This document shows positions 29,057 through 46,920 of a stretch of DNA of 57,215 nucleotides, piece after piece. The notes beneath the pieces are model-generated. The model saw only the letters and a program-made list of their open reading frames with translations, was not told the origin of the DNA and did no database searches. The first letter of the stretch is position 1. The number at the start of each line of letters is the position of its first letter. Source of the stretch: an uncultured Gammaproteobacteria bacterium (GTDB taxonomy: Bacteria > Patescibacteriota > Microgenomatia > Levybacterales > UBA12049); assembly GCA_964483115.1 (NCBI GenBank), contig CAYZZF010000001.1:85907-143121 (forward strand), in the 5' to 3' direction. The translations under genes and the position numbers were made by a program.

Positions 29057-29079
29057 TACTTTATACTTAATAAATTTTT

Positions 29080-30931: not shown

Positions 30932-32290
30932 ATGAAAAAATATCTTGTCCTGATTTTAATACTTGCATTTTCCTTAATCTTTTTAAGAAACTCTAGATTC
31001 TCTATTCATGCCGCAAACATTAAGGTGCCATCATTAGCAACAAACAGAATAATAGTAAAATTTCGTCCAAAGACCCCGCCGGACGTCCAGAACAACTTGA
31101 TAAAAAGCTTCGGAATTTATCAGAAAGAAAAATTAAGACTGACTGACACTTTTGTTTTACCGGTCCCTGAAGGTAGAGTGGTGGAATTTATTAATAAATT
31201 TCTCAAAAATAAGAATATTGAATATGCGGAGGAAGATCGTATTGCAACTATTCTTGAAGTGCCAAACGATCCTTATTATCCGCAGCAGTGGGGACTTTCA
31301 AAAATTCAAGCCGCTTCAGCTTGGAATATAACTTATGGTTTGAGTAGTGTTGATATAGCTATTGTTGATACAGGTATTGATGGATCTCATCCTGATCTAT
31401 CTTCGAAAATTGTTGCTTCAGCAGATTGTACAGTTTCTGTGAATTGTACAGCAACATCTCCTTTTGACAATAACGGACATGGGACACATGTAGCTGGAAT
31501 TGCCGCAGCAGTTACAAATAATGGTATTGGAATTGCAGGTACAGGGTACAACACCAGTCTTATTTCTGTTAAAGTTTTAGACAGTTCGGGTAACGGTTAT
31601 TATTCTTGGGTAGCAAATGGTATAGTTTGGGCGGCAGACCATGGCGCAAAGGTAATAAATCTAAGCCTTGGTGGGTCATCCCCTTCTTCTACATTATCCA
31701 ACGCTGTTTCTTATGCATGGAACAGAGGAGTTGTCATCGCAGCAGCAGCTGGTAATGATAATACTTCAAGACGTCTTTATCCTGCATATTATTCACAAGT
31801 TCTATCAGTTGCGGCAACTGACCAAACTGATCAGAAAGCCTGGTTTTCAAACTTTGGGTCTTGGGTAAAACTTGCTGCTCCTGGTGTTGATATTTTTTCA
31901 ACATATAATAACGGCGATTATACAACTCTTTCCGGGACTTCTATGGCAACTCCTTTTGTCTCAGGTGTTGCAGGGCTTGTTTTTGGAGAGCATCCAACTT
32001 GGACAAATTCTCAAGTTAGAGACAAGATTGAATCCACTGCAGATAAGATTTCAGGAACCGGATCTTATTGGCAGTACGGTAGAATAAATGCGTGTAGTGC
32101 AGTTGACTGCAATACGTCAATAAATCCAACTCCGACACCTACACCAACATTAACACCAATCCCAACACCAACACCAACGCCTACCCCAACTTTAACTACT
32201 ACCCCGACTCCAACTCTTACTCCAACACTAAGTCCAACCCCCACTCCGATTCCCCGGTGGTGTATCCGCTGGCCATTTTTGTGTAGATAA
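30932..32290 (+). CDS. Secreted subtilisin-like serine protease (peptidase S8) with a C-terminal Pro/Thr-rich tail
   Basis: Signal peptide, inhibitor_I9-like propeptide, catalytic D (VDTGID), H (HGTHVAG), N (NLSLGG) and S (SGTSMATP). The PT-rich tail ends in a Cys-containing RWCIRWPFLCR. Confidence 0.85.
   Translation: MKKYLVLILILAFSLIFLRNSRFSIHAANIKVPSLATNRIIVKFRPKTPPDVQNNLIKSFGIYQKEKLRLTDTFVLPVPEGRVVEFINKFLKNKNIEYAEEDRIATILEVPNDPYYPQQWGLSKIQAASAWNITYGLSSVDIAIVDTGIDGSHPDLSSKIVASADCTVSVNCTATSPFDNNGHGTHVAGIAAAVTNNGIGIAGTGYNTSLISVKVLDSSGNGYYSWVANGIVWAADHGAKVINLSLGGSSPSSTLSNAVSYAWNRGVVIAAAAGNDNTSRRLYPAYYSQVLSVAATDQTDQKAWFSNFGSWVKLAAPGVDIFSTYNNGDYTTLSGTSMATPFVSGVAGLVFGEHPTWTNSQVRDKIESTADKISGTGSYWQYGRINACSAVDCNTSINPTPTPTPTLTPIPTPTPTPTPTLTTTPTPTLTPTLSPTPTPIPRWCIRWPFLCR
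32124..32256 (+). repeat. Low-complexity Pro/Thr-coding tract (ccaaca/ccgaca-type units)
   Basis: Encodes PTPTPTPTLTPIPTPTPTPTPTLTTTPTPTLTPTLSPTPTP at the C-terminus of the S8 protease. Confidence 0.8.
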
Positions 32291-32333: not shown

Positions 32334-32849
32334 ATGAAAAATATTAAACTTCTTATAATTCTTGTAATTATTCTTATTGTTGCTGTTATTGAGCAAAAAA
32401 GTTTTATTAGTAAATCGCAAAAACAAGTCAACATCTTAAAACCGACTAAATCTTCAGCCCCATCAGTTACCCCAACCCCTACTGTTTTTCAAAATGCAAA
32501 CAATCAGAATAAAAATGTGCAGATGCCAACTACTACTCCGATACCTACTCAAACCGCTAATAACAACACTGATATTTCCTCTTTCATTTATCTAAATTCT
32601 ACAACGATCAGTTCGGGAAATAAGAATTTGATTTTGCAAAGTTTTGATGATCCACAGGTTATTACAAATTGGTACAAAGATAGGATAACAAATATAGGCA
32701 TGAGTGCTAAATCATTTATTACCACAAATACCAACGGAGATATTCTCAATAAACTTGCTGGAGCAAATGGGTCGATGCAGGTTGAAGTTACAATTTCAAA
32801 AAAAAGCTCAGAATCTAGGGTAAAAATTAAAATTGAGATTACACCTTGA
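32334..32849 (+). CDS. Hypothetical membrane-anchored/secreted protein with a Pro/Thr-rich linker
   Basis: 171-aa ORF with an N-terminal TM segment (LLIILVIILIVAVI), then a PT-rich linker and a small globular domain. Confidence 0.45.
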   Translation: MKNIKLLIILVIILIVAVIEQKSFISKSQKQVNILKPTKSSAPSVTPTPTVFQNANNQNKNVQMPTTTPIPTQTANNNTDISSFIYLNSTTISSGNKNLILQSFDDPQVITNWYKDRITNIGMSAKSFITTNTNGDILNKLAGANGSMQVEVTISKKSSESRVKIKIEITP

Positions 32850-34501: not shown

Positions 34502-35227
34502 ATGGAAGAAAATAGGCAAACAATATCAGTCTATATTCCACTAAAAAAGCTACTTACGCGATTTGAAATTTCTTATAATGCAGTTGCGCAAAGAAGTAAT
34601 CGATTTAATTTTAGACTTTCACAATTCAGACAGAGACTTAATTTCCAAAGCTTGAAATTTCAAAAAAAATTTTTTCAGTACCTATTAGGTATTATAATAA
34701 TAGTTTTGATTCTAGTTGCAGGTGTTAAGATAATCGATTCAATATTTTCGAACAAACAGTCGTTATCGCAGACTCTTGGTAAATCAAGTGAGATAAAAAT
34801 AGCAGATCCACTGTCAACTGAAAAATTAAATAAAGGCTTTAAATTTTCTTTAAGAGATGATAACGGAAAAGAAATAGCTACATTTGCATATACCATCGAA
34901 TCGGCAGAACTACGTAAAGAGATTTTAGTAAAAGGGCAAAAAGCAACAGCCATTAGTGGTAGAATATTTTTAGTTATTAATCTTAAGATTGTTAACACGC
35001 TTAAACAAGGAATTACTGTTAACACCAAAGACTACATAAGATTGTCTGTTAACAATAATAAAGAATTACTTGCTCCCGACATTCACAATGATCCTGTCGA
35101 TGTGCAAGCAATTTCTACCAAATATACTCGTGTAGGGTTTGCAATAAACGAAAGCGACCGCAATCTCACACTGCAAGTGGGAGAAATTGATGGAAGAAAA
35201 GAAACAATCAAGCTGAGCTTTAAATAA
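34502..35227 (+). CDS. Hypothetical membrane-anchored protein, possibly DUF4352-like beta-sandwich ectodomain
   Basis: 241-aa ORF with one TM segment (LLGIIIIVLILVAGV). The segment GRIFLVINLKIVNTLKQGITVNTKDYIRL resembles the DUF4352 core (from memory, unverified). Confidence 0.4.
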   Translation: MEENRQTISVYIPLKKLLTRFEISYNAVAQRSNRFNFRLSQFRQRLNFQSLKFQKKFFQYLLGIIIIVLILVAGVKIIDSIFSNKQSLSQTLGKSSEIKIADPLSTEKLNKGFKFSLRDDNGKEIATFAYTIESAELRKEILVKGQKATAISGRIFLVINLKIVNTLKQGITVNTKDYIRLSVNNNKELLAPDIHNDPVDVQAISTKYTRVGFAINESDRNLTLQVGEIDGRKETIKLSFK

Positions 35228-35228
35228 T

Positions 35229-35474
35229 ATGGTGCGTTCTTCAAAAGATACTGTTGCCATACTAAATGAAATACAGAAAGCACTGGATGATATGGTGTTT
35301 GGAAGCGTAGAGCTTTATGTTCAAAACCGCAAAGTCACCCAAATAACGGTTCGCCACATAAAAAAGACAAGTATAGCAACTCAATCCGAAAGCAAACTGT
35401 TAGAAGATAGTAAGAATGCAAAAAAACTATTGACAAACAGAAAAGACATCAGTATACTTGCTAATGTAGATTAG
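35229..35474 (+). CDS. Small YezD-like (DUF2292-like) protein
   Basis: 81-aa ORF. ALDDMVFGSVELYVQNRKVTQITVRHIKK resembles the DUF2292 core G-S-V-x-I-x-V-q-d-G-k-V. Start is 2 nt after the upstream stop. Confidence 0.45.
   Translation: MVRSSKDTVAILNEIQKALDDMVFGSVELYVQNRKVTQITVRHIKKTSIATQSESKLLEDSKNAKKLLTNRKDISILANVD
35430..35458 (+). promoter_or_regulatory. Candidate promoter TTGACA-17-TATACT inside the 3' end of the YezD-like gene
   Basis: ttgaca at 35430-35435, a 17-nt spacer, tatact at 35453-35458. Would start an ~200-nt leader for the 35668 gene. Confidence 0.4.
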
Positions 35475-35496
35475 TCCAATAGAACAAGCTGACCGC

Positions 35497-35552
35497 AAAC
35501 GGAGGCTTTTCTTTCCAACGAAAGTTGGTGAGAGGAGTCTCCGTTTTTGTTT
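35497..35552 (+). terminator. Long hairpin plus T-tract (intrinsic terminator or attenuator)
   Basis: AAACGGAGGC (35497-35506) pairs with GTCTCCGTTT (35537-35546). It encloses an inner CCAAC-GAAA-GTTGG tetraloop hairpin and is followed by tttttgttt. The downstream AAAAACGG (35553-35560) can pair alternatively with CCGTTTTT. Confidence 0.5.
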
Positions 35553-35667
35553 AAAAACGGAAGCCCGCCTTCTCCTGCGCAGCAGGATTCGGCGAGGCAA
35601 AGGAAGTGCAATCCGCCGCATCAAACGCGGAATCGGAAATATATAAAAGGGAGGGGGTGAATATATA
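35553..35667 (+). promoter_or_regulatory. GC-rich structured 5' leader of unknown class upstream of the first repeat-protein gene
   Basis: Clearly more GC-rich than its surroundings. Hairpins at 35563-35598 (inner CCTGC-gca-GCAGG) and 35610-35633 (TCCGC...GCGGA). Strong SD GGGAGGGGGTG before the ATG at 35668. Confidence 0.35.
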
Positions 35668-36936
35668 ATGCATGATACAAAGAGAAAATTAGTAACAGCA
35701 ATTGCAACCGGAGCGCTTTTACTTAATGCATTTGTACCTGTTGCATTCGCAACCACCACTATAGAGATTACTGGTAACGGCGTTGGTTCTGATAATTATG
35801 CAAACGTTACTCAAACGAGTAATACTGTTGTTAATCAAACCAATAATGCAACCGTCACTAACAATGTTAACGCAACTGCAGATACCGGAGACAATAAAGC
35901 AAAGTTCAACACCGGTGGAAGCGTGACAGTTAATACTGGTGATGCAAACGTTACAGCCAACGTCTCAAACACTCTAAATTCCAATGCGGCACAAGCAAAC
36001 TGTTGTCAAACAGGGAATACGGACGTTCTAATAGACGGTAATGGTGTGTTTTCAACTAATACTGTTAATCTTACTCAAAATAGTAAGACAACTGTAACTC
36101 AGACTAACACCGCAAACGTTACCAACAATGTTGACGCAAATGCAGACACCGGAAACAACAATGCAAAATGGAATACTGGTGGAGACGTTACCGTTAGCAC
36201 AGGAAATGCAACAGTAAATGTTGATGTTTCAACTCAGGCCAATGCAAACTGGGCAAAAGTCAGTCCGGCAGCAGGCTCTGGGCCATCAACCGACGTAAGT
36301 CTTAAAATCTTGGGCAATGGCGTTGGCAGCGATAACTTTATTGGTGCCACTCTAACCAAGAACACAACAGTAAATCAAAATAATAGCGCTTACGTTAATA
36401 ACGACGTTAATGCAAACGCAGAAACCGGAGACAATGAAGCAAAGTTTAATACCGGAGGAGACGTAACAGTTGATACCGGAAATGCCAAAGTTATGGGAGA
36501 CGTAAATAATATGGTTAACTTTAACTGGGCAGATGTGAACTGCGGATGTGCTTTCGGGCTTACTGCAAAAATTGCTGGAAATGGAGCAGACCTTTTTGAC
36601 AACGGTCCACACGATGATAATACCATCACTGCAGCATTAACAAGTTTGCAGAGCGCCTTACAAGGCAATATTGCGAACTTGAGCAATAACGTTGATGGCG
36701 ATGCAGATACCGGAGACAACAGTGCAAAATGGAACACTGGTGATGTACAAGGAGTAGATGATGCTTCTGTGGTAACTGGTGATGCAACTGATAACTTCGG
36801 TACTCAAAACAGCGGAAATTCTAATGTTTTGGGCAGTGTGCCTCCATTGCAATGGCCAGATATGCCTCCTGTTAATGTAACAATTGACTGGAGTGCTCTT
36901 TTGTCATTCTTTGGAATGTTTGTACACAGCGGTTAA
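35668..36936 (+). CDS. Secreted Asn/Thr/Gly-rich repeat protein (four ~90-aa modules), family unknown
   Basis: Signal peptide MHDTKRKLVTAIATGALLLNAFVPVAFA. Modules start at I/L-x-G-N-G (aa 34, 122, 214, 302). Each contains N-x-V-x-A-x-A-D/E-T-G-x-N-x-A-K-F/W-N-T-G-G-D-V-T-V-x-T-G-x-A. Cys pairs NCCQ and NCGCA occur. Confidence 0.8.
   Translation: MHDTKRKLVTAIATGALLLNAFVPVAFATTTIEITGNGVGSDNYANVTQTSNTVVNQTNNATVTNNVNATADTGDNKAKFNTGGSVTVNTGDANVTANVSNTLNSNAAQANCCQTGNTDVLIDGNGVFSTNTVNLTQNSKTTVTQTNTANVTNNVDANADTGNNNAKWNTGGDVTVSTGNATVNVDVSTQANANWAKVSPAAGSGPSTDVSLKILGNGVGSDNFIGATLTKNTTVNQNNSAYVNNDVNANAETGDNEAKFNTGGDVTVDTGNAKVMGDVNNMVNFNWADVNCGCAFGLTAKIAGNGADLFDNGPHDDNTITAALTSLQSALQGNIANLSNNVDGDADTGDNSAKWNTGDVQGVDDASVVTGDATDNFGTQNSGNSNVLGSVPPLQWPDMPPVNVTIDWSALLSFFGMFVHSG
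35764..36790 (+). repeat. Four diverged ~264-276-bp coding modules (intragenic repeat)
   Basis: Module starts at ~35767, 36031, 36307 and 36571. Core DNA words such as gcagaYaccggaRacaa...aaYaccggWgga recur. Confidence 0.7.
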
Positions 36937-36948
36937 ATCCTGTAAAAA

Positions 36949-36987
36949 GTAGGGTTGTCTACTTGCACTTCAGTTAGACAACCCTAC
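36949..36987 (+). terminator. 13-bp perfect hairpin after the first repeat-protein gene (no clear T-tract)
   Basis: GTAGGGTTGTCTA (36949-36961), a 13-nt loop, then TAGACAACCCTAC (36975-36987). Followed by A-rich sequence, so it is either an atypical terminator or a processing/stability element. Confidence 0.4.
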
Positions 36988-36998
36988 GAAACAGGAAT

Positions 36999-37030
36999 AA
37001 AAAATTCAAAATTAAAAATTAAAAAAAATT
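36999..37030 (+). repeat. Intergenic 7-bp-periodic A-rich array (aaaaatt caaaatt aaaaatt ...)
   Basis: Same unit family as the intragenic arrays. Lies just upstream of the 37041 start. Confidence 0.6.
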
Positions 37031-37040
37031 AATAAAAAAA

Positions 37041-39338
37041 ATGAAAATAATTAAAAAAATAAAAAAAGCACTAATAACATTGTTAATAATAGTAGTAATT
37101 GCTATTCAAGTTGGTCCTGTTGTTTATGCAGAGGATATCCCAACAGCTCCTACCCCACCAACAGCTCCTACCCCACCAACAGCTCCGACCGCACCAGATT
37201 CAACTATTTCTCCTCCAACTCCACCGGCTGCCCCCACACCACCTACTGCTCCAGAATTAACGGTTACGCCTCCATCCGCTCCAACTCCGCCAACAGCCCC
37301 GACTCCACCCAAAGCTCCAACCCCTCCTTCTGCGCCTACTCCTCCAAGTTTACCTCCGTCTTTGGATACCACTGGTGTCCAGCAAGATCAAAATACTGCA
37401 AATCAACAAGGTACAGGTGGAGAAACTTCGAATTTTAATAACGGAGATCCGTCAATTAAAACCGGAGATATAAACAATACTGGAAATATTTCGACTATCG
37501 GGAACAATAATCTTTCGACTACAACTCAAGGATGTTGTACAAACGCAGCATCGGTAGTAAGTAATGGTAATGGAGCAAACTCCACAAATAGTGGATCTGC
37601 AACCATCTTAGATAACAATAATTTGTCTCAAGCAAATGGAGCGACAGTCGGAAACAATCTTTCCAGTTCTTCAGTTTCAGGAAATAACTCGGCATCGTTT
37701 AACGTTGGTAATTCAAGTATTGTTTCTGGCAACGCAAACACCACAGGTACAATTGTTACAGGGGTGAATACCAATGTAGATAATGTTGCAGTTTCAGAAT
37801 TTAATGTGGTAGATAATAATACAGGCGATATTATTCTTGATTTTGGTGCGAATTGTATTTCAGGATGTAATGGAAGTAGTGGAGCGCTTACTGCACAAAA
37901 CTCGAATAACGCAGCAGGATCTGTAAATACTTCTTCTTTGGACAGTACCAACAATAATACCAATTTGCAAAATAACGATGCTGTAATAACAAATGATCTT
38001 ACTTTAGGATCAAATTCAGGCAGCAATTCTACAAGTTATAATACAGGCGGGGATTCGTCAATTACTACAGGCAATGCAAATGTCGCGGCAAATGTTTTGA
38101 CTTTAGTAAATAACAATTTAGCAGGAAATGTTGTATTCGGAATTGTAAATATTTTCGGCAATCTTATAGGCGATATAATTCTTCCTCAGAGCGTGATCGA
38201 TTCTTTATCCTGTTTAGCATGCGGGAGTTCTTTGAGCGCGGTAAACAGCGGGAATGGTGCTAATTCCACAAATAACGCAGAAATAAGTAGTACATCCACT
38301 AACACAACACTTCAGAATAACAATGCAACAATAGATAATAATTTATTACTCTCGGCAACGACTGGTAACAATAGCTCAAACTTTAATACAGGTGGTGATT
38401 CAAGCGTTATAACAGGAAATTCCGATATTAATGCTCAAGTATTAAATATTGCTAATTCGAATATCAATGGCGGTAACATGTGGCTTGTTATTATAAATAA
38501 AGCAGGTCAATGGATTGGGCAGATTTTGGGAGCACCGGTTGGTAGCAATTTTGCGGGTTCATCAGGCAGTGAATTTACAGTTAGTCCAACTGGCGAAATA
38601 ACCGTAACAAACAGTGGAAATGGCGACGGATCAGTAAATAATTCAAATGTCTCAAGCGCAAGCAATAATACTACTGTCCAAAATAATAACGCAAAAATTG
38701 TAAATAACCTTAATCTTTCCGCAAACACCGGTAACAATATGGCCAGTGACAATACAGGTGGTGATTCAACTATAAAGACAGGAGATGCAAAAATTATCGC
38801 CAGTCTTATAAACTTTGTTAACAATAATATTACCGGAGGCGGAAAGTTAATTGTAACCGTTGTTAATGTTTTTGGTAGCTGGCTTGGGGATTTTGTAACC
38901 CCAGGTACAAATAAAGATAAAAAGACTAATGATCCGTCTGGTATTGGAGGACCGATAGCTCAAGCTCAGCTAGCTGGCGATAATCGCAACAGTGGATCTT
39001 CGGATAATAACCAAAATAATAGTGGGTCAAACTCTAGTCCGTCGTTGCAGCAGAACAATTCACCGATAGTGGTTGATGCGGCAATAGGCTATGGAGATAT
39101 TGGAGAGAATAAAGGACAAATCTTGACAACTTCAACCTATAAACCCGATCCAGGTCTTGTTCTCGCCAGCGCTCAGATGCATAATTTGGATTTGCAAAAT
39201 TCAAATACTGCTGGGGCAAAAAAAATAAACATAAATCTCGCGTGGGCAATTATTATTATTCCAGTTTTACTGACTGCTTATTTTACAATAAAAAGAAAGT
39301 ATTTATTTAATTTTCTGTCCCTTAAAAAGGGCATATAA
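37041..39338 (+). CDS. Large surface protein: signal/TM, PTAPTP proline-rich stalk, four Asn/Ser/Thr-rich repeat modules, C-terminal TM anchor with KRK tail
   Basis: 765-aa ORF. Modules contain S-x-x-G-N/S-N-S-x-S-x-N-T-G-G-D-S-S-I-T-T-G-N-A and end in hydrophobic V-N-x-F-G-x-x-x-G-D. C-terminus is AWAIIIIPVLLTAYFTIKRKY. No canonical LPxTG. Confidence 0.8.
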   Translation: MKIIKKIKKALITLLIIVVIAIQVGPVVYAEDIPTAPTPPTAPTPPTAPTAPDSTISPPTPPAAPTPPTAPELTVTPPSAPTPPTAPTPPKAPTPPSAPTPPSLPPSLDTTGVQQDQNTANQQGTGGETSNFNNGDPSIKTGDINNTGNISTIGNNNLSTTTQGCCTNAASVVSNGNGANSTNSGSATILDNNNLSQANGATVGNNLSSSSVSGNNSASFNVGNSSIVSGNANTTGTIVTGVNTNVDNVAVSEFNVVDNNTGDIILDFGANCISGCNGSSGALTAQNSNNAAGSVNTSSLDSTNNNTNLQNNDAVITNDLTLGSNSGSNSTSYNTGGDSSITTGNANVAANVLTLVNNNLAGNVVFGIVNIFGNLIGDIILPQSVIDSLSCLACGSSLSAVNSGNGANSTNNAEISSTSTNTTLQNNNATIDNNLLLSATTGNNSSNFNTGGDSSVITGNSDINAQVLNIANSNINGGNMWLVIINKAGQWIGQILGAPVGSNFAGSSGSEFTVSPTGEITVTNSGNGDGSVNNSNVSSASNNTTVQNNNAKIVNNLNLSANTGNNMASDNTGGDSTIKTGDAKIIASLINFVNNNITGGGKLIVTVVNVFGSWLGDFVTPGTNKDKKTNDPSGIGGPIAQAQLAGDNRNSGSSDNNQNNSGSNSSPSLQQNNSPIVVDAAIGYGDIGENKGQILTTSTYKPDPGLVLASAQMHNLDLQNSNTAGAKKININLAWAIIIIPVLLTAYFTIKRKYLFNFLSLKKGI
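37139..37360 (+). repeat. Proline-rich tandem coding repeat (18-bp unit ccaacagctcctacccca = PTAPTP, degenerating downstream)
   Basis: Two perfect units at 37139-37174, followed by diverged PTAP/PSAP/PKAP units. Confidence 0.8.
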
Positions 39339-39386
39339 TTTACTGCAAATTTTTAAGATATTTTTAAAATATAACTAAAGGTGATT

Positions 39387-40568
39387 ATGATTAAGAGAAT
39401 TTTTACATCATTAATTTTCGTTTTGCTTTTTGGAATGCTTTTTACAGCTTTGGTAAGTGCACAGGATACAGTGCTATCAATAACGAATAATGGTAGCGAC
39501 TCTACTAACGAAGTTAAGATAGACTCTACAACCACGACAACGGTTCAGCAATCAAACAATGCTCAAGTACAAAACAATATAACAAGTAATTCAAATACGG
39601 GAAATAATCAGACTTCTTCAAACTCCGGCTCGGCAGACATCACGACAGGATCTGTTACAAGCAGTGAAAACGTGAGTAATAAGAATATAAATTCAAATGT
39701 AGCGGAGAACAAAAACTGCGGTTGCGCAAATAATGTTACTGTGCAAATAACAGAGAACGGGACAAATTCGACCAACAATGCCAATTTAAACATTTCAAAC
39801 ACAACAAATATAACTCAAGAAAATAATGCAAATATTACTAACAATATTGAAGTTCATGCAAATACGGGAGACAATAGCGCAAATAACAATGGAGGAGATA
39901 TTGAGATAAAAACTGGAAATATCTTGAGTATAGTTACTATTAACAATAAAAACATTAATCAAAATGTTGACCCGCAAGATAATAAAGCAGGCATGTTGAC
40001 AGTTGCAATAAAAGATAACGGGGAAGGCTCAAGCAATAATGCGACGATTAGTCTATCTAATGTCTTTAACTACAAAAGCAAGAATATTGCTATTCTTGTG
40101 AATAGCGACATAGAAGACCCAAATACAGGCGGCAATACAGCAAATGGCAATATAGGAGGTGTTCTTATCATAACTGGTGATATTGTAAAAATTACGACCA
40201 TAGGAAATGAGAATATTAATGGTTCTTTCTTTAACCCTCCGCCGACGCAAATAATTCCACCCTCTCCTCCAGGAGGAGGAGGAACAGGAGGAGGAGGGGG
40301 GGGAGAGGGAGTTCCGCCTGCAGGCCCACCGCCAAGCGGCGGTGAAGCGCCATCAGGTAGCCAACCACCATCTTCTCCTTCAAGTGGGGCAGGAGCGTTA
40401 ATTAGCGTAGCCGGTCAGGTTCTCGCAGCCGCAGCAGGAGGAATTCTGCCGGTAACAGGAAATTATTGGATGTTGCTTTTGATTTTTCTTCTTTCTGCAA
40501 TGTTTCTTACGGGATGGTATCTGCGCTTCGGTTCCGACTCTTCTCCGCCAGCATATGCAATTGTCTAA
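39387..40568 (+). CDS. Sortase-substrate surface protein of the same repeat family (LPVTG sorting signal)
   Basis: Signal peptide, NCGCA Cys pair, module H-A-N-T-G-D-N-S-A-N-N-N-G-G-D-I-E-I-K-T-G-N, and a Gly/Pro-rich spacer. The C-terminus ILPVTG + NYWMLLLIFLLSAMFLTGWYL + R is a cell-wall sorting signal. Alternative GTG start at 39381. Confidence 0.8.
   Translation: MIKRIFTSLIFVLLFGMLFTALVSAQDTVLSITNNGSDSTNEVKIDSTTTTTVQQSNNAQVQNNITSNSNTGNNQTSSNSGSADITTGSVTSSENVSNKNINSNVAENKNCGCANNVTVQITENGTNSTNNANLNISNTTNITQENNANITNNIEVHANTGDNSANNNGGDIEIKTGNILSIVTINNKNINQNVDPQDNKAGMLTVAIKDNGEGSSNNATISLSNVFNYKSKNIAILVNSDIEDPNTGGNTANGNIGGVLIITGDIVKITTIGNENINGSFFNPPPTQIIPPSPPGGGGTGGGGGGEGVPPAGPPPSGGEAPSGSQPPSSPSSGAGALISVAGQVLAAAAGGILPVTGNYWMLLLIFLLSAMFLTGWYLRFGSDSSPPAYAIV
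40296..40303 (+). repeat. Homopolymeric G8 tract inside the LPVTG-protein gene
   Basis: gaggagGGGGGGGGagaggga. It sits upstream of the sorting-signal codons in an AT-rich genome. Confidence 0.9.
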
Positions 40569-41115
40569 AAAAAAGTTTATTGGAAACGCCCTGATGGCGT
40601 TTTCTCTTTCTTTAATTATTTTTATCTACTATCCAGTGATAGCTTTGTATCTTGTTCCAACTCAAACAGTCAATAAATTATCAGATACTTCATTTTATAT
40701 AGATATTCCCAAAATAAATGTGTTTCTCCCGATTATTTCTAATGTTGACCCTTTTAATGAAAAAGAATATAGAAAGGTTTTGGAAAAAGGAGTTGCTCAA
40801 GCAAAAGGTACGGCGCTTCCTGGAGAGAAAGGAACGTCTTATCTTTTTGGCCATTCATCTGATTCGCCATGGAGGATTACAAGATACAACATTGCCTTTT
40901 TTCGATTACCAGAACTTAAAAAAGGGGATATTATTTTAATCAAAAGACGCGGAAAAGAATATAAGTATAAAGTGAGCGGTGAAAAAACTGTCTGGCCTAA
41001 CGAGATTAATTATTTACTTGATACAAAAAAGACTCAGTTAATTTTACAGACCTGTGTACCGATAGGTACGTCTCTTCAAAGACTTCTTGTTTTTGCGGAC
41101 CCAGTTAAAGATTAG
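40555..41115 (+). CDS. Sortase-family transpeptidase
   Basis: N-terminal TM segment. Catalytic His in SYLFGHS, Cys in LILQTCVP (TLxTC-type), Arg in QRLLVFA. Overlaps the substrate gene by 14 nt. Confidence 0.85.
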   Translation: MQLSKKKFIGNALMAFSLSLIIFIYYPVIALYLVPTQTVNKLSDTSFYIDIPKINVFLPIISNVDPFNEKEYRKVLEKGVAQAKGTALPGEKGTSYLFGHSSDSPWRITRYNIAFFRLPELKKGDIILIKRRGKEYKYKVSGEKTVWPNEINYLLDTKKTQLILQTCVPIGTSLQRLLVFADPVKD

Positions 41116-41295
41116 TTCCAGCTGAATAAATGTATTACCCATGGCCTAAAAGAAAACTTTTCTCCTTAATTTCATCTTTGGATAATCCCAAGCATATTGA
41201 ACATTTTTTTAATGATTTTTGACTCATGAAACTTCTTTTTATCTATCGGGGAAGTGCTATTCAAAAATACCACATATTTTCAAGAAGAGTTATTA

Positions 41296-41321
41296 ATAAA
41301 AAACCCCGCATTTCTGCAGGG
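41296..41321 (-). terminator. Intrinsic terminator (GNRA-looped 7-bp hairpin plus T-tract), usable in both directions
   Basis: Minus strand reads CCCTGCA-gaaa-TGCGGGG followed by tttttt. On the plus strand the same hairpin is followed by ctttta. Sits between the convergent sortase gene and the 109-aa gene. Confidence 0.6.
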
Positions 41322-41345
41322 CTTTTATAAACACTTAACGCAAAT

Positions 41346-41675
41346 TTAATTGTTTTGGTTAAGGGTGTTGGTAATGGTTACACTTACCGTTGCATCTCCA
41401 GTCTTTACTGAATTAGACCCACCATTGTTTAAGTCAGCACTGTTGCCACCTGTTGATGCTCCAGCAAGAACAATATTACCTACTGTAGCAGTATTTGACT
41501 TCACTGTTACACTAGTGTTTGTAATCTTAATCTTACATATATTCAATGAGTTATGTCCGCTGCCAGAAATTGTACACGTGTTACCACTAGCCGCGAATGC
41601 AGCACCAGGCAGAAGTGTTGCGGCAAGGATTGCACCAGTTGCAATTGCTGTTTTTACTTTTTGTTTAATTGTCAT
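41346..41675 (-). CDS. Small secreted single-module member of the repeat family
   Basis: 109 aa. The signal peptide MTIKQKVKTAIATGAILAATLLPGAAFA is clearly related to that of the 35668 protein. One module: A-G-A-S-T-G-G-N-S-A-D-L-N-N-G-G-S-N-S-V-K-T-G-D-A. Strong SD AGGAGGTG lies 7 nt upstream. Confidence 0.7.
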   Translation of the reverse strand: MTIKQKVKTAIATGAILAATLLPGAAFAASGNTCTISGSGHNSLNICKIKITNTSVTVKSNTATVGNIVLAGASTGGNSADLNNGGSNSVKTGDATVSVTITNTLNQNN

Positions 41676-41882
41676 TCTTTTTCACCTCCTTTCTTCAAAA
41701 AATTAAAAACCAGCCCAAGAGCTGGCCTTTTAAGTTTTAAGATAATATTAATTCGGGCAGATAATTCATAATTATATTCTTGAAAAATCCTTCTCCCTGA
41801 GCGGGCAGCTCACAGAGAGAGTTTGTCATGAGCAGTTGACAAAGTACGAGTATTATAAATTATGTTTGGATTATTATGTCAA
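41676..41882 (-). promoter_or_regulatory. Promoter (TTGACA-19-TATAAT) plus ~170-nt structured leader with a terminator-like hairpin upstream of the 109-aa gene
   Basis: Minus strand -35 at 41882-41877 and -10 at 41857-41852. Hairpins at 41843-41822 (TTTGTCA-N8-TGACAAA), 41820-41792 and 41725-41710 (CCAGC-tcttgg-GCTGG, then TTTTT). Only then comes the SD. Confidence 0.4.
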
Positions 41883-41970: not shown

Positions 41971-42984
41971 ATGGCGAAACTTTTGGGACTTATGTTGATG
42001 TCCCTGTTTATTACTTTTATTCTTCTTATTCCTTTCATTGACTTTCTCTACAAGATGAAGTTTCGCAGGCAGAAACAAAAGACACTGGATATCTTCGGCA
42101 AACCTGCACCCAATTTTGATAAATTTCATGCATGGAAAGAGGGTACGCCTGTTGGCGGGGGAGCCTTAATTATTGTTACCGTTTCAATATTATCGCTTTG
42201 GTCATATGGAATGTTAGGTGTAGAAGTAAAACCATGGGAAATTTTTGTAATACTTTTTACACTTATTAGTTTTGGAATCTTGGGATTTTATGACGATTTG
42301 AAAAAATTTGTTAATAATGGAAAGAAATTTGCCTTTTTCGGGCTTAGATTTAGATATAAATTTCTTATTCAATGGCTATTGGCGTTGGTTGTGGCTGTAA
42401 TTTTATTTACACAGCTTGGATATTCATTTATATTTATTCGAGGATTTGGAATGGCCAGTCTTGGCTTTCTCTATATTCCTATTGCTGCATTTATCATTGT
42501 ATCATTTACCAATGCCTTCAATATCGCAGATGGACTCGATGGGCTTGCAACAGGTCTTCTTCTAATTTGTCTTGGAGCATTTTTGGCATTATCTGCCAAT
42601 AGCGTTGATCAAACTTCAAAAATTTTTATAGCAATTCTTATAGGGAGCATTACAGCATTTCTTTACTTTAATATTTACAAAGCGAGAATTTGGCTGGGAG
42701 ATGTTGGAACATTGTCACTTGGGGCAGTCCTGGCGGTAATAGGACTTCTGACAGGAAAAATTATAGCTTTGGCATTTATCGGCGGAGTATTTATTATTGA
42801 AGTAGGGTCTTCTTTAATACAAATTCTTGGTAAAAAATTCTTAGGAAGAAAAATATTTTCTGTTTCTCCATTTCATCTCTATCTTCAAAAAATAGGCTGG
42901 GATGAGCCAAAAATCGTTATGAGGGCTTGGCTTCTTGGATTTTTCTTCGCTATTTTGGGGCTTTACATCGCCTTTATAAGATGA
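41971..42984 (+). CDS. mraY: Phospho-N-acetylmuramoyl-pentapeptide transferase
   Basis: Polytopic, with NAFNIADGLDGLATG and DVGTLSLG motifs. Confidence 0.9.
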   Translation: MAKLLGLMLMSLFITFILLIPFIDFLYKMKFRRQKQKTLDIFGKPAPNFDKFHAWKEGTPVGGGALIIVTVSILSLWSYGMLGVEVKPWEIFVILFTLISFGILGFYDDLKKFVNNGKKFAFFGLRFRYKFLIQWLLALVVAVILFTQLGYSFIFIRGFGMASLGFLYIPIAAFIIVSFTNAFNIADGLDGLATGLLLICLGAFLALSANSVDQTSKIFIAILIGSITAFLYFNIYKARIWLGDVGTLSLGAVLAVIGLLTGKIIALAFIGGVFIIEVGSSLIQILGKKFLGRKIFSVSPFHLYLQKIGWDEPKIVMRAWLLGFFFAILGLYIAFIR

Positions 42985-42985
42985 A

Positions 42986-44059
42986 ATGAAAAGGGTAGAT
43001 TTAACTCTCCTTCTAACAGTTGTATTCCTAACACTCTTTGGACTGTTTATGATATATGATGTGTCTTCTTTTGTCGCTTTTAGAGACTTTGGTGATAAAT
43101 ATCACTATATAAGAGGACAATCTTTCTGGGTCTTTTTAGGATTTTTATTTTTAATTATTTTCTCTTTTTTTGATTATCACAGATTTTACAATCTTTCGCT
43201 ACCAATTCTTATTGCAGCTCTTACACTTTTAATATTAGTTTTTGTTCCTGGTATTGGAATTTCTCTTCTTGGAGCTCACCGATGGATAGATTTTAAATTT
43301 TTTACTCTTCAGCCTGCTGAGTTTGTAAAATTGGCTCTTGCAATTTATCTTGCTTCTTGGCTATCAACACGGGAGAAAGGTAGATTCTTGGCGTTTTTAC
43401 TACTTTTGGCTCTGGTTTCAGCTCTTGTATTGCTTGAACCAGATATGGGAACGGCTATTATTATACTTTCAGAAGCTCTTGTTGTGTATTTTTTTTCGGG
43501 AGGAAGTATACTTTATTTTGCGGGTCTGTTGCCAGTGATTGCGGCAATTGGGTTTTTTCTTATCAAATTGTCACCGTACAGATATAAGAGACTTGAGACT
43601 TTTTTTAATATAAATCAATCGATTGGAACGTCTTCTTACCATGTGCGTCAAATTTTAATTGCTTTAGGTTCTGGAGGAATATTTGGCGTTGGGCTTTCAA
43701 ATTCGCTTCAGAAGTATGCATATTTACCCGAGACAACGACTGACTCAATCTTTGCCATAATTGCCGAAGAGCTTGGCTTTATAGGCGCAACATTTATTAT
43801 TATCTTACTTGCTGTTATTGTATGGCGAGGCTTTTACATAGCGATAAAAGCAAAAGATAATTTTGGCAGACTTCTAGCGGGTGGAATTACTACTTTTTTA
43901 GCAGTACAGACAATTATAAATCTTGCCTCACAAACCGTACTTTTACCTCTTACCGGAGTTCCCCTGCCATTTATCTCCTATGGTGGATCTGCCCTTATAA
44001 TTGATCTTTGTTCAGTTGGTGTCCTTTTGAATATCTCAAAACAAGGCGTAAAGGTATGA
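42986..44059 (+). CDS. ftsW: SEDS-family peptidoglycan glycosyltransferase FtsW
   Basis: Ten-TM SEDS pattern: EFVKLALAIYLA, PDMGTA, ETTTDSIFAIIAEELGFIG, GVPLPFISYGGSAL. Position between mraY and murG. Confidence 0.85.
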   Translation: MKRVDLTLLLTVVFLTLFGLFMIYDVSSFVAFRDFGDKYHYIRGQSFWVFLGFLFLIIFSFFDYHRFYNLSLPILIAALTLLILVFVPGIGISLLGAHRWIDFKFFTLQPAEFVKLALAIYLASWLSTREKGRFLAFLLLLALVSALVLLEPDMGTAIIILSEALVVYFFSGGSILYFAGLLPVIAAIGFFLIKLSPYRYKRLETFFNINQSIGTSSYHVRQILIALGSGGIFGVGLSNSLQKYAYLPETTTDSIFAIIAEELGFIGATFIIILLAVIVWRGFYIAIKAKDNFGRLLAGGITTFLAVQTIINLASQTVLLPLTGVPLPFISYGGSALIIDLCSVGVLLNISKQGVKV

Positions 44060-45183
44060 AAATTGCAATCATTGGAGGGCATCTATCGCCTGCTCTGTCT
44101 GTAATTGATGTCTTGCCAAAAAACACAAAGCTCCTATTTATAGGACGAAGATATACTTTTGAGGGAGATAAAACTTTATCCTTGGAATATAAAACCATAA
44201 CTGGTCTTGGAATTCAATTTTTACCCATCATAACCGCAAGGTTTCAAAGAAAATTTACAAGATATACTATTCCTTCCCTTTTTAAATTACCAACAGGATT
44301 TATTCAGGCATTTTCTATTCTTAATAAATTTAAGCCCGATGTGGTTTTGGGTTTTGGGGGATATTTAGAAATTCCAGTAGTCCTAGCGTCATTTTTTTTA
44401 AGAATTCCGGTTGTGATTCATGAACAGACTCAAGAAGCTGGTCTCGCAAATAAAATCAGCTCCCGGTTTGCTAAAAAAATCTGTGTGTCATGGAAATCTT
44501 CTGAAAAACATTTTCCAAAAGAAAAAACAACTTTTACAGGCAACCCAATAAGAAAATTCAAAATTCTCGCATCGCGGCGGAGCGGACAAAATTCAAAACT
44601 CAAAATTCAAGAAGACAACTTGCCGTTAATTTATATTACAGGAGGAAGTGCAGGCTCTCATTTTATAAATAATTTAGTAGAGGGGTGTTTGGAAAAATTA
44701 CTTAGGAATTTTAGAATAATTCATCAAACAGGAGAAACAGAAGAATTCAAGGATTTTACTAAACTTATCGCTCTTCGCAAAAAACTTTCGCCTAAACTTA
44801 CAGAAAGATATGTTATTCAAGAATTTATTGAACCCTTTGATGTTTTTCGCTTACTTAAAAGAGCAACACTTGTAATTGGAAGATCTGGAATAAATACTGT
44901 TTGCGAGCTTATGTATATAGGTACTCCCTGTCTTTTGATACCGCTGCCTTTCTCACAAAATAATGAACAATTTAAAAATGCAGTTCTTCTTAAAAAAATC
45001 GGAATTTGTGAGATTGCCGATCAGACTTATTTGGATTCCGAAAAGTTTTACCGCATTATAAAATCTATGATTAATAATATAGAAAACTATAAAAAAAATG
45101 CTCATAAGGCTAAAAGTTTTGTTCATAAAGATGCAGGTTTAAAAATAGTAAAAGTTTTAGAGTATGCGGCGAAGAATAAATAA
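44056..45183 (+). CDS. murG: UDP-GlcNAc--undecaprenyl-PP-MurNAc-pentapeptide GlcNAc transferase
   Basis: MKIAIIGGHLSPALSV, TGNPIR, ITGGSAGS and the C-terminal nucleotide-sugar-binding half. The ATG at 44056 overlaps the ftsW stop (ATGA); the 44008 extension in the track is rejected. Confidence 0.85.
   Translation: MKIAIIGGHLSPALSVIDVLPKNTKLLFIGRRYTFEGDKTLSLEYKTITGLGIQFLPIITARFQRKFTRYTIPSLFKLPTGFIQAFSILNKFKPDVVLGFGGYLEIPVVLASFFLRIPVVIHEQTQEAGLANKISSRFAKKICVSWKSSEKHFPKEKTTFTGNPIRKFKILASRRSGQNSKLKIQEDNLPLIYITGGSAGSHFINNLVEGCLEKLLRNFRIIHQTGETEEFKDFTKLIALRKKLSPKLTERYVIQEFIEPFDVFRLLKRATLVIGRSGINTVCELMYIGTPCLLIPLPFSQNNEQFKNAVLLKKIGICEIADQTYLDSEKFYRIIKSMINNIENYKKNAHKAKSFVHKDAGLKIVKVLEYAAKNK
44552..44610 (+). 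repeat. Two CAAAATT-type heptamer blocks flanking a 21-nt GC-rich core in murG
   Basis: gaaaatt caaaatt [ctcgcatcgcggcggagcgga] caaaatt caaaact caaaatt. Encodes KFKILASRRSGQNSKLKIQ in the GNPxR-to-GGS linker. Confidence 0.85.
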
Positions 45184-45571: not shown

Positions 45572-45574
45572 ATT

Positions 45575-46870: not shown

Positions 46871-46920
46871 TTAAAAGGGCTTGCAAAAATATTTTTTATT
46901 TGCTAGTATAATTTTTATCT

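What the first reader, a model, noticed from the sequence alone, without database searches (positions are those of the whole stretch)
35668..41675. Sortase-linked family of four Asn/Thr/Gly-rich repeat proteins, a candidate novel surface fibre/adhesin system
Four genes encode paralogous secreted proteins of 422, 765, 393 and 109 aa. They are built from one to four copies of a module whose core is roughly N-x-[VIL]-x-x-x-[AS]-x-[TS]-G-x-N-x-[AS]-x-x-N-[TN]-G-G-[DS]-x-x-[VI]-x-T-G-[DN]-A-x-[VI]-x-x-x-[VIL]. The alternating pattern is what one expects of a beta-solenoid or beta-helix. Modules are punctuated by Cys pairs (NCCQ, NCGCA, GCC, CISGC, CLAC). Two members share a distinctive signal peptide, K-x-V-T-A-I-A-T-G-A-[LI]-L. 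One member ends in LPVTG plus a hydrophobic helix and Arg, and its gene overlaps a sortase gene (His/Cys/Arg triad present). Another has a PTAPTP stalk and a C-terminal TM-KRK anchor. The smallest is a single module with the strongest SD and its own promoter, leader and terminator, which suits an abundant major subunit. The combination looks like a dedicated surface-polymer or adhesin system: anchor subunit, large decorated subunits, a small abundant subunit, and a sortase, with an S8 protease and a GT-C-like membrane protein nearby. I cannot place the module in any named repeat family from memory. For an episymbiotic CPR-type cell this would be a prime host-attachment candidate.
Basis: partly seen in the sequence, partly recalled or inferred. 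Interest (0 to 1): 0.85.

Follow-up and report, generated by a model that had tools for sequence, protein, structure and literature searches.

The report
Sortase-linked surface-protein cluster of Microgenomates
Four related secreted proteins share an undescribed 77-residue all-beta module, sit in a gene cluster conserved across Microgenomates (CPR) bacteria, and one of them is predicted to be fixed to the cell wall by its own sortase, so they are a concrete candidate for the still-unknown protein coat or surface fibres of these cells.

Summary
Four paralogous secreted proteins (422, 765, 393/395 and 109 aa) carry 4, 4.5, 3 and 1 copies of one 77-aa Asn/Thr/Gly-rich module, next to a genuine sortase.

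- **Module:** it matches nothing in Pfam, NCBIfam or PDB sequences. An AlphaFold model (pLDDT 78) is all-beta and has no significant Foldseek neighbour. The family is large (3054 representative clusters), and nearly every named member is called "hypothetical".
- **Synteny:** the order S8 protease, h171, h241, DUF2292, A, B, C, sortase, with D on the opposite strand, recurs across Levy-, Gottesman-, Woese-, Chisholm- and Daviesbacteria.
- **Sortase link:** it is real but narrower than proposed. Only the C-type protein has a sorting signal. Two sortase clades co-vary perfectly with two sorting motifs, LP[VA]TG and GLSxxSG. Of 39 metagenomic clade-I sortases, 35 directly follow an LPxTG-type module gene.
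- **Other paralogs:** A, B and D lack sorting signals and pilin motifs, so this is not a sortase-polymerised pilus.
- **Charge and conservation:** A, B and C are acidic and D is mostly basic. A and B are conserved about as well as the flanking enzymes, which argues for a structural envelope assembly rather than a variable host adhesin.

Function remains inferred.

The parts
30932..32290 (+). Secreted S8 subtilase with an N-terminal prodomain and a Pro/Thr-rich C-terminus; a syntenic accessory gene.
   Evidence: Pfam PF00082 at E = 5.6e-57. A homolog lies upstream of the cluster in 9 of 18 genome loci.
32334..32849 (+). h171: N-terminal anchor or signal, Pro/Thr linker, then a conserved domain of about 100 aa of unknown family.
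   Evidence: Present in 16 of 18 loci. No Pfam or PDB match.
34502..35227 (+). h241: basic cytoplasmic N-terminus, one TM helix and a weakly DUF4352-like beta ectodomain. It is the most constant neighbour of the cluster.
   Evidence: Present in 18 of 18 loci. DUF4352 is matched by 5 of 18 orthologs, best E = 8.7e-4, below the cut-off. TM helix.
35229..35474 (+). Small DUF2292 (YezD-like) protein directly upstream of A.
   Evidence: Pfam PF10055 at E = 3.3e-7. Present in 14 of 18 loci.
35430..35667 (+). Conserved leader of A422: a -35-like TATTGACAAAC, a terminator-like hairpin with a U-tract, a second GC-rich hairpin, then the SD GGGAGGGGGTGA.
   Evidence: Promoter-like site with 11 of 12 matches. 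Fold energy -71 kcal/mol. Conserved in L009, L010 and L019. No Rfam hit.
35668..36936 (+). A422 (A-type): Sec signal, 4 modules, conserved CC and CGC between modules, and a C-terminal acidic/aromatic plus short hydrophobic tail (aa 390-422). pI 4.05.
   Evidence: At least 966 clusters of A-type relatives, none with a meaningful name beyond 'hypothetical'.
36937..37040 (+). A-B intergenic stem-loop with a perfect 13-bp core and no U-tract. Candidate mRNA stabiliser or attenuator that would favour A over B and C.
   Evidence: RNAfold gives -30.2 kcal/mol. B has no SD.
37041..39338 (+). B765 (B-type): signal, N-terminal Pro-rich tract (aa 31-105), 4.5 modules each followed by a hydrophobic VVNxFGxWxGD extension, a low-complexity spacer, then the C-terminal KKININLAW motif, a TM helix and KRK (aa 727-753).
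   Evidence: INLAW-TM-basic tails occur in 37 of the top 150 family members.
39387..40568 (+). C393/C395 (C-type): signal, 3 modules, NCGCA, a Gly/Pro-rich wall-spanning linker, then the sorting signal LPVTG plus TM plus R (nt 40446-40565). The predicted sortase substrate.
   Evidence: It is the only LPXTG-type signal in the window.
40555..41115 (+). Membrane-anchored sortase (clade I) with His100, Cys167 and Arg176. It overlaps or is tightly coupled to C.
   Evidence: Pfam PF04203 at E = 2.7e-24. No NCBIfam class cut-off is reached. Clade and motif co-vary. Reverse synteny test.
41346..41675 (-). D109 (D-type, single-module form): Sec signal, one module with a Cys pair (C34, C47), basic (pI 9.7), and no anchor.
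41295..41345 (-). Terminator-like hairpin plus T-run after the D109 stop codon.
   Evidence: Read directly from the sequence. RNAfold stem.
41676..41735 (-). D109 5' leader with an 11-bp hairpin and the SD AAGGAGGTGA.

Best explanation
This is a conserved, operon-encoded cell-envelope protein system of Microgenomates (CPR/Patescibacteria). It is built from four paralogs that share a previously undescribed 77-residue all-beta module.

**Placement of each paralog.**
- All four are exported by Sec.
- C is cleaved at LPVTG by the sortase encoded immediately downstream and is covalently attached to peptidoglycan through a Gly/Pro-rich wall-spanning linker.
- B is tethered to the membrane by its C-terminal INLAW-TM-KRK segment.
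- A is acidic, has four modules and ends in a short hydrophobic tail.
- D is small, mostly basic and has no anchor.
- A and D are released and retained by non-covalent association with the anchored paralogs, through module-module contacts and charge complementarity, possibly locked by the conserved inter-module cysteines.

**Overall role.** Together they form a composite proteinaceous surface structure. I judge a structural coat or short fibre layer more likely than a variable host-specific adhesin. The co-conserved membrane or secreted proteins (h171, h241, S8 protease) probably help in assembly or processing.

**Shown versus inferred.** Shown: the paralogy, the module boundaries, the export and anchor signals, the synteny, and the sortase-motif covariation. 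Inferred: the physical co-assembly of the four proteins, the role of the cysteines and the biological function.
For: - **Real, large family.** 12 full module copies in the window; 3054 representative clusters, 662 of them at E <= 1e-30.
- **Export and anchor signals.**
- **Gene order.** A-B-C-sortase-(D) plus h171, h241 and DUF2292 is conserved in 18 genome loci from at least five candidate phyla and in the metagenomic loci.
- **Sortase tied to C.** A sortase follows the C-type gene in 14 of 18 loci. Clade I sortases pair with LP[VA]TG in 7 of 7 cases. Clade II sortases pair with GLSxxS[GS] in 6 of 6 cases. Both clades keep His, Cys and Arg. Reverse test: 35 of 39.
- **Only one substrate in the window.** C is the only LPXTG-type substrate there.
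- **Wall present.** Peptidoglycan genes (MraY, FtsW, MurG) sit next door.
- **Conservation.** A and B are conserved like the neighbouring enzymes.
- **Charge.** A, B and C are uniformly acidic; D is basic in 19 of 28 cases.
- **Cysteines.** The inter-module CC and CGC are conserved: C292 and C294 in at least 90% of the 66 A-type sequences of the alignment.
- **Expression signals.** Strong SDs on A and D, and a strong 3' hairpin after A.
- **Fold.** AF2 gives an all-beta model (pLDDT 77.6, pTM 0.62). Covariation supports its hairpins, including the Cys 3-16 pair.
Against: - No expression, localisation or interaction data exist.
- Co-assembly of the four paralogs is inferred only from synteny, shared modules and charge.
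- A and B occur without C or a sortase in L020 and L024. D-like genes occur alone in other Patescibacteria. The parts can therefore function separately.
- The single-module model was unusable (pLDDT 43).
- Pfam's Gram_pos_anchor HMM did not report the C tail, and the tail after the Arg is unusually long.
- The roles of the A-type tail and of the B-type INLAW motif are unknown.
Confidence: 0.5

Rival explanations
1. Functional-amyloid or chaplin-like fibre system. The free subunits (small D, perhaps also A) polymerise on the cell surface by beta-strand stacking. The wall-anchored C and membrane-anchored B act as nucleators and anchors. This parallels Streptomyces, where sortase-anchored long chaplins hold short-chaplin fibres, and curli, where CsgB nucleates CsgA.
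For: - The family has the same logic as chaplins: multi-module members with a sorting signal and single-module secreted members with a conserved Cys pair.
- The modules are Asn/Gln/Gly/Thr-rich strand-turn repeats.
- The weak top Foldseek hits are FapC and CsgA.
- D has a strong SD and its own terminator.
- The lone module does not fold confidently on its own.
- Same-position couplings between tandem modules are compatible with in-register stacking.
Against: - The Foldseek matches are not significant (E = 0.015-0.02, TM <= 0.24).
- There is no Pfam Curlin or chaplin hit.
- AF2 gives a defined monomeric model for A with long antiparallel strands.
- The same-position couplings are a known repeat artefact.
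- Most D-type proteins have two modules.
- The chaplin analogy comes from reviews found and from general knowledge. It is not a test.
Confidence: 0.2
2. Host-attachment adhesins. The proteins act mainly as largely independent adhesins that bind the surface of a host cell. The T/N-rich beta faces would serve as carbohydrate- or surface-binding sites.
For: - The proteins are surface-exposed repeat proteins, and one has an LPXTG anchor.
- CPR bacteria are widely inferred to be symbionts, and CPR-enriched families are linked to cell-cell interaction (PMC6744442).
- B carries a distal Pro-rich extension.
Against: - Architecture and sequence are conserved across phylum-level lineages at the same level as the flanking enzymes: A 39-53% against S8 53-69%.
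- Module number is fixed at 4, 4 and 3.
- There is no lectin or known adhesin domain.
- Host-specific adhesins normally vary in repeat number and sequence.
Confidence: 0.2
3. Gram-positive-type sortase-polymerised pilus. The sortase joins subunits covalently, with D as the major pilin and C as the basal anchor.
For: - A sortase gene lies inside a cluster of paralogous secreted proteins.
- The best NCBIfam similarity is to class C sortases (70.5 bits).
Against: - Only C has a sorting signal. A, B and D have none.
- None of the four has a YPKN-type pilin motif or an E-box.
- The class C cut-off of 160 bits is not reached.
- A and B persist without a sortase.
Confidence: 0.04
4. Compositional artefact, or unrelated low-complexity proteins that merely sit next to a housekeeping sortase.
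For: - The composition is strongly biased, with N + T + G + S near 45%.
- BLAST E-values run without composition correction are inflated.
- One public annotation of a homolog is evidently spurious.
Against: - Conserved columns are position-specific, with invariant N, Q, G and C positions.
- Module boundaries are defined and module number is fixed.
- Gene order is conserved across phyla.
- Sortase clade and sorting motif co-vary.
- The AF2 model is confident and its contacts are supported by covariation.
Confidence: 0.02

Closest known systems
Sortase-anchored LPXTG surface proteins of monoderm bacteria (housekeeping-type anchoring of repeat proteins, e.g. MSCRAMM- or SasG-like stalk proteins)
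   Same: The C-type protein has a Sec signal, tandem beta-rich repeats, a Gly/Pro-rich wall-spanning linker and an LPxTG + TM + basic signal. An adjacent sortase has the His/Cys/Arg triad. Peptidoglycan synthesis genes are present.
   Different: - The repeat module is unrelated to any named repeat (no Pfam, NCBIfam or PDB match).
- The sortase reaches no class-specific cut-off.
- The substrate is embedded in a fixed set of paralogs that use other anchoring modes.
- A sister sortase clade uses a non-LPXTG motif, GLSxxSG.
Streptomyces chaplins (long chaplins ChpA-C anchored by class E sortases; short secreted chaplins ChpD-H)
   Same: Both are paralog families in which multi-domain members carry a sortase signal, single-domain members are simply secreted, and the short form carries a conserved Cys pair. 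This suggests anchored members holding a layer of free members.
   Different: - The chaplin domain is about 40 aa and hydrophobic (Pfam PF03777). This module is 77 aa and polar (N/T/G-rich), and no Pfam hit was found.
- Chaplins have no counterpart of the A-type and B-type proteins.
- Here the genes are clustered with the sortase.
- Amyloid formation was not tested.
Curli (CsgA/CsgB) and Fap (FapC/FapB) functional amyloids
   Same: Both have Asn/Gln/Gly-rich imperfect strand-turn repeats and a major subunit plus an anchored paralog. FapC and CsgA are the top, non-significant Foldseek hits.
   Different: - There is no sequence-profile match, and the structural match is not significant (E >= 0.015, TM <= 0.24).
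- The predicted strands are long and antiparallel rather than a parallel solenoid.
- The host is a monoderm, and there is no CsgG- or FapF-type secretion machinery.
Gram-positive sortase-assembled pili (Spa-type, class C sortase)
   Same: A sortase gene lies inside a cluster of secreted paralogs.
   Different: Only one protein has a sorting signal. There is no pilin motif or E-box. The class C threshold is not met.
S-layer proteins of monoderm bacteria
   Same: A, B and C are acidic, Thr/Asn/Ala/Val-rich, nearly Cys-free secreted proteins with strong expression signals and conserved architecture. Envelope-biogenesis genes flank the cluster in the Levybacteria loci.
   Different: There is no SLH, CWB2 or other known anchoring domain. 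Lattice formation is unknown. Anchoring would be through a sortase-attached and a membrane-tethered paralog, which is not the usual S-layer arrangement.

Membership tests
Sortase (Pfam PF04203) | Sortase domain above the Pfam gathering score | tested here: met
   85.7 bits against a cut-off of 26.6, E = 2.7e-24, full-length match.
Sortase (Pfam PF04203) | Catalytic His, Cys (TLxTC-like) and Arg | tested here: met
   LFGH100SS, LILQTC167VP and LQR176LLVFA. These are conserved in both sortase clades.
Sortase classes A-F (NCBIfam subfamily models) | Score above a class-specific cut-off | tested here: not met
   Best is class C at 70.5 bits (cut-off 160), then class D at 51.6 (cut-off 165). Only the generic TIGR01076 model passes, at 60.2 against 39.35.
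LPXTG cell-wall sorting signal | LPxTG, then a hydrophobic stretch of about 20 aa, then a basic residue, at the C-terminus | tested here: met
   LPVTG-NYWMLLLIFLLSAMFLTGWYL-R... in C. The tail after the Arg is 14 aa, which is longer than typical.
LPXTG cell-wall sorting signal | Match to a curated anchor model (Pfam Gram_pos_anchor or NCBIfam LPXTG_anchor) | tested here: not met
   No such hit at E <= 1 in the Pfam or NCBIfam scans of C.
LPXTG cell-wall sorting signal | Cleavage and transfer to peptidoglycan by the cognate sortase | not testable with these tools
   Supported only indirectly, by adjacency (35 of 39 loci) and by motif-clade covariation.
Sortase-assembled pilus | Every polymerised subunit carries a sorting signal | tested here: not met
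   A, B and D lack any LPXTG-like signal.
Sortase-assembled pilus | Pilin motif (YPKN-type Lys) and E-box in the subunits | tested here: not met
   A regex search found none in A, B, C or D.
Curli / Fap functional amyloid | Curlin or Fap repeat profile match | tested here: not met
   No Pfam hit for the whole proteins or for the 12 single modules at E <= 10.
Curli / Fap functional amyloid | Beta-solenoid fold similar to CsgA or FapC | tested here: inconclusive
   These are the top Foldseek hits but they are not significant (E = 0.015 and 0.023, TM <= 0.24). AF2 secondary structure shows strands of 19-31 residues.
Curli / Fap functional amyloid | Amyloid fibre formation | not testable with these tools
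   Needs purified protein tested by thioflavin T binding, electron microscopy and fibre diffraction.
Chaplins (Pfam PF03777) | Chaplin domain profile match | tested here: not met
   No Pfam hit. The resemblance is only in the family's organisation.
S-layer proteins | Known wall-anchoring domain (SLH, CWB2 or similar) | tested here: not met
   No such Pfam or NCBIfam hit in A, B, C or D.
S-layer proteins | Forms a 2-D lattice and is among the most abundant proteins | not testable with these tools
   Needs cryo-ET and metaproteomics.
Parallel beta-helix / pectate-lyase-like repeats | Profile or structural match | tested here: not met
   No Pfam hit. Foldseek hits to beta-helix proteins have E >= 0.12 and TM <= 0.08.

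The most novel reading that the evidence does not exclude
The conserved A-B-C-sortase-D cluster, with h171, h241, DUF2292 and the S8 protease, encodes the main proteinaceous envelope layer of Microgenomates. That layer would be an S-layer-like coat or sheath built from a new all-beta module and held at three depths: a membrane-tethered B, a sortase-attached C, and free acidic A and basic D subunits. Linked to this, a second sortase clade in these bacteria recognises a previously undescribed GLSxxSG-type sorting signal.
Probability: 0.28. Interest if true: 0.8.

Novelty: new variant of a known kind. Interest (0 to 1): 0.66.

Why it matters
The cell envelope of CPR/Patescibacteria is essentially uncharacterised. 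The papers I read say that its structure 'remains unclear' (PMC5220378). [quoted passage not shown]

This cluster supplies a concrete, conserved substrate for that sortase. It also supplies a set of abundant-looking partner proteins from a family of thousands of members that no database names. That makes the composition of the Microgenomates surface directly testable by metaproteomics, heterologous sortase assays, structure determination and cryo-ET.

The module may be a new beta fold. The sortase clade that co-varies with a GLSxxSG motif would extend the known range of sortase specificities.

Tried and rejected
- **Single-module structure.** The AF2 prediction of D109 with a 26-row alignment gave pLDDT 43 and is unusable.
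- **Family and structure searches on the module.** Pfam, NCBIfam and PDB-sequence searches on whole proteins and on single modules found nothing. Foldseek against the PDB and BFVD found nothing significant.
- **Locus retrieval with alignments.** The search for related loci with alignments A4 and A5 failed because no stretch was conserved enough. I used the single protein instead, which limits the genome sample to 18 loci.
- **Pseudolikelihood DCA.** It timed out twice and was replaced by mean-field DCA. The tandem-module DCA is dominated by same-position couplings and cannot settle inter-module packing.
- **Promoter and terminator scans.** They are not enriched over shuffles, so the expression signals rest on direct reading and RNAfold.
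- **Rfam.** No family was found for the A leader.
- **Accessory genes.** h171 and h241 could not be identified.
- **Viral contigs.** No relatives were found.
- **Literature.** Searches found no description of this family or cluster. The cryo-EM paper by Luef et al. 2015 is not in the library, so its S-layer observation is cited from memory only.
- **INLAW as a sortase signal.** Rejected, because the motif is unchanged across both sortase clades and in sortase-less loci.

Full report
**1. Observation**

The five ORFs are present as described:
- A422: 35668-36936 (+)
- B765: 37041-39338 (+)
- C: 39381/39387-40568 (+), 395 or 393 aa
- Sortase: 40555-41115 (+)
- D109: 41346-41675 (-)

All-against-all BLAST and an iterated HMM define a 77-residue module. 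There are four copies in A, four and a half in B, three in C and one in D. Nine columns are invariant among the 12 full copies.

Three points need correcting:
- The Pro-rich tract of B is N-terminal, far from the anchor.
- A422's Shine-Dalgarno sequence is as strong as D109's.
- The gene overlap with the sortase depends on choosing the ATG at 40555. Public gene calls use 40594.

**2. What the module is**

- No Pfam or NCBIfam model matches the whole proteins or any single module. No PDB sequence matches the module profile even at E = 10.
- An exhaustive profile search of 1.84 billion representatives finds 3054 proteins at E <= 0.001 and 662 at E <= 1e-30.
- The best 150 hits fall mainly into two fixed architectures. 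One is about 400-440 aa with 4-5 modules. The other is about 720-800 aa with 5 matched stretches.
- A word-indexed search with the A-type alignment returns at least 966 clusters. Every source name is 'hypothetical' or 'uncharacterized', apart from one evidently spurious SNF2/RING label. All named organisms are Microgenomates or Patescibacteria, and none has a precomputed Pfam domain.
- AlphaFold2 on A422 with 66 homologs gives mean pLDDT 77.6 and pTM 0.62. The model is all-beta. Each module runs: a 6-residue strand, a GNG turn, a strand of about 31 residues, a TGxN turn, short broken strands around NTGG, a TGD turn, then a strand of about 19 residues. A low-confidence C-terminal helix follows.
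- Foldseek finds no significant neighbour in the PDB or in BFVD. The best PDB hit has E = 0.015, and the highest TM-score in the PDB table is 0.24. The weak top hits are the functional amyloids FapC and CsgA, followed by beta-helix proteins.
- Mean-field covariation on 838 module copies independently supports the GNG hairpin. The top reproducible pair, 3-16, is the Cys pair of D-type modules. It also supports an antiparallel ladder (28-77, 32-74, 34-72) and a small hairpin at NTGG (49-57).

The module is therefore a real, widespread, undescribed beta domain. 'Beta-solenoid' is not established.

**3. Genomic context**

- Eighteen loci from GTDB species genomes share the same gene order. They come from Levy-, Gottesman-, Woese-, Chisholm-, Davies- and Nealsonbacteria; the closest are Levybacteria at 72-73% identity. 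The order is (S8 protease) - h171 - h241 - DUF2292 - A - B - C - sortase on one strand and D on the other.
- h241 is present in 18 of 18 loci. It is a single-pass membrane protein with a weak DUF4352-like ectodomain. h171 has no match.
- All cluster products except DUF2292 have a signal peptide or a TM anchor.
- In Levybacteria the cluster lies between GlmS and MraY-FtsW-MurG-FtsA-FtsZ. That neighbourhood was seen only in Levybacteria loci.

**4. The sortase link**

- A sortase follows the C-type gene in 14 of 18 loci. L020 and L024 lack both, and L023 and L025 end at contig edges.
- The C-type tails fall into two classes, LP[VA]TG and GLS[ADV][AT][SA][GS]. Each is preceded by a Gly/Pro-rich linker and followed by a TM helix and a basic residue.
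- The adjacent sortases fall into two clades that are only 20-32% identical, and both retain His, Cys and Arg. Clade I pairs with LP[VA]TG in 7 of 7 cases. Clade II pairs with the GLS motif in 6 of 6 cases, plus one unreadable tail.
- Reverse test: starting from clade-I sortases in metagenomes, 35 of the 39 loci with enough upstream sequence have a module gene ending at the sortase start. Of these, 34 carry LP[AVSI]TG and one carries LPISG. Two more loci have the 3-module gene about 500 nt upstream.
- C is the only LPXTG-type protein in the window.
- The B-type INLAW-TM-basic tail is identical in both sortase contexts and in sortase-less loci, so it is not a sortase signal.
- A, B and D have no sorting signal, pilin motif or E-box.

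The sortase is therefore dedicated to the C-type paralog and is not a polymerase for the family.

**5. Further anatomy**

- A-type proteins end in a conserved tail, N..N.NV.G....P...F.FDL..LL..LG. It is too short to span a membrane.
- Cys291-Gly-Cys-like pairs between modules are at least 90% conserved among the 66 aligned A-type proteins.
- D-type proteins have two forms. The commoner form is about 200 aa, with two modules joined by CxC, and ends NTLNP. The other is about 116 aa, with one module and the Cys pair. D109 is of the second kind.
- Across loci, A, B and C are uniformly acidic (pI <= 4.7). D is basic in 19 of 28 cases and in all six single-module forms.
- A and B are 39-53% and 30-55% identical across phylum-level lineages. 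This is comparable with h241 (36-56%) and with the S8 protease (53-69%, Levybacteria loci included).
- A and D have very strong SDs, and B has none. A perfect 13-bp stem follows the A stop codon, and D has its own terminator hairpin.

**6. Mechanism**

The best-supported reading is a multi-anchored envelope assembly:
- C is fixed to peptidoglycan by its sortase.
- B is tethered in the membrane.
- A and D are secreted and retained by association with the anchored paralogs through the shared modules and opposite charge.

The conservation pattern favours a structural coat or fibre layer over a variable adhesin. The export signals, the anchors, the synteny and the sortase-motif covariation are shown. 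Co-assembly and function are inferred.

The main rival is a chaplin- or curli-like polymer of free subunits on anchored nucleators. It shares the family logic but has no significant sequence or structural support. A Spa-type pilus is disfavoured, and an artefact is excluded.

**7. Comparison with the literature, and novelty**

- The literature I could search confirms that sortases are near-ubiquitous in Microgenomates, that Microgenomates-enriched families are mostly hypothetical proteins (PMC6744442), and that the CPR envelope is uncharacterised (PMC5220378; PMC8871954).
- No paper found describes this module or this cluster.
- Cryo-EM evidence of an S-layer on ultra-small groundwater bacteria (Luef et al. 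2015) is recalled from memory. It could not be read here.
- I classify the finding as a new variant of a known kind: a sortase-dependent surface-protein system of a monoderm. Its new features are a new repeat domain, a fixed four-paralog organisation with three anchoring modes, and a second sortase clade with a non-canonical motif.
- Interest is moderately high because it makes the composition of the Microgenomates surface experimentally approachable.

Noticed in passing
L012:13515-14677, L013:13452-14656, L014:13477-15064, L015:13589-15422, L017:13560-14896, L022:13660-15400: A second clade of cluster-encoded sortases has the motifs [VI]FAHAR[ED] and LTL[FY]TCSG[FY]. These always sit after C-type genes that end in GLS[ADV][AT][SA][GS] + TM + K/R instead of LPxTG. 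This may be a previously undescribed sortase recognition motif.
   Followed up: partly
window 35430-35667: The leader of A422 is conserved in the Levybacteria loci L009, L010 and L019. It has an invariant TATTGACAAAC (-35-like) inside the 3' end of the DUF2292 ORF, then a conserved hairpin with a U-tract and a variable loop, then a GC-rich second hairpin in a 35% GC genome. It could be a transcription attenuator or leader RNA, or simply the upstream terminator. No Rfam match.
   Followed up: partly
window 36937-37040: A very stable stem-loop (-30 kcal/mol, perfect 13-bp core, no U-tract) lies immediately after the A422 stop codon. The next gene, B765, has an A-rich leader with no SD. This may set a high A:B expression ratio.
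   Followed up: no
window 39219-39335 (B765 aa 727-765): The C-terminal signature K-[IV]-x-I-N-L-A-W + TM + R/K cluster is conserved in 37 of the top 150 family members. Its three-part form resembles a sorting signal, but it is independent of sortase presence or clade. Any processing enzyme is unknown.
   Followed up: partly
window 36835-36933 (A422 aa 390-422): The conserved A-type C-terminal tail (..P...F.FDL..LL..LG) is acidic/aromatic followed by 12-15 hydrophobic residues, which is too short for a TM helix. AF2 predicts a low-confidence helix. Its function is unknown; it could be a docking peptide, an interfacial anchor or a processing signal.
   Followed up: no
window 41346-41675 and D-type genes in L009-L082: There is a charge dichotomy. 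A, B and C types are uniformly acidic (pI about 4-4.7), while D-type proteins are mostly basic (19 of 28, and all six single-module forms).
   Followed up: yes
L001:10001-10285, L004:10001-10351, L005:5711-6061: In other Patescibacteria, single-module D-like genes stand alone after PAP2 and diacylglycerol-kinase genes. No sortase or multi-module paralog lies within the sequence available on either side (up to 10 kb).
   Followed up: partly
window 37041-39338 (B765 aa ~360-385, 478-500, 600-625): Each B-type module is followed by a conserved hydrophobic extension (..NNN..G...VVNxFGxWxGD..P) that is absent from the A, C and D types. It also appears in the fragments P0012 and P0013.
   Followed up: no
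It is syntenic only in the three Levybacteria loci, so it is probably not a core part of the system.
   Followed up: partly
window 30932-32290: The S8 subtilase has a long Pro/Thr-rich C-terminal linker ending in RWCIRWPFLCR, with two Cys and no LPXTG. It lies upstream of the cluster in about half of the genome loci, so it is a candidate processing protease.
   Followed up: no
P0252: A public record names an A-type homolog from a Woesebacteria genome 'SNF2 domain/helicase domain/RING finger domain-containing protein'. This is evidently a spurious annotation driven by the low-complexity composition.
   Followed up: no
window 27306-30873 and 41971-48006: In this genome the cluster is embedded in envelope-biogenesis genes. 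GlmU-like and GlmS genes lie upstream, and MraY, FtsW, MurG, FtsA and FtsZ lie downstream. Among the fetched loci, these neighbours were seen only in Levybacteria.
   Followed up: partly
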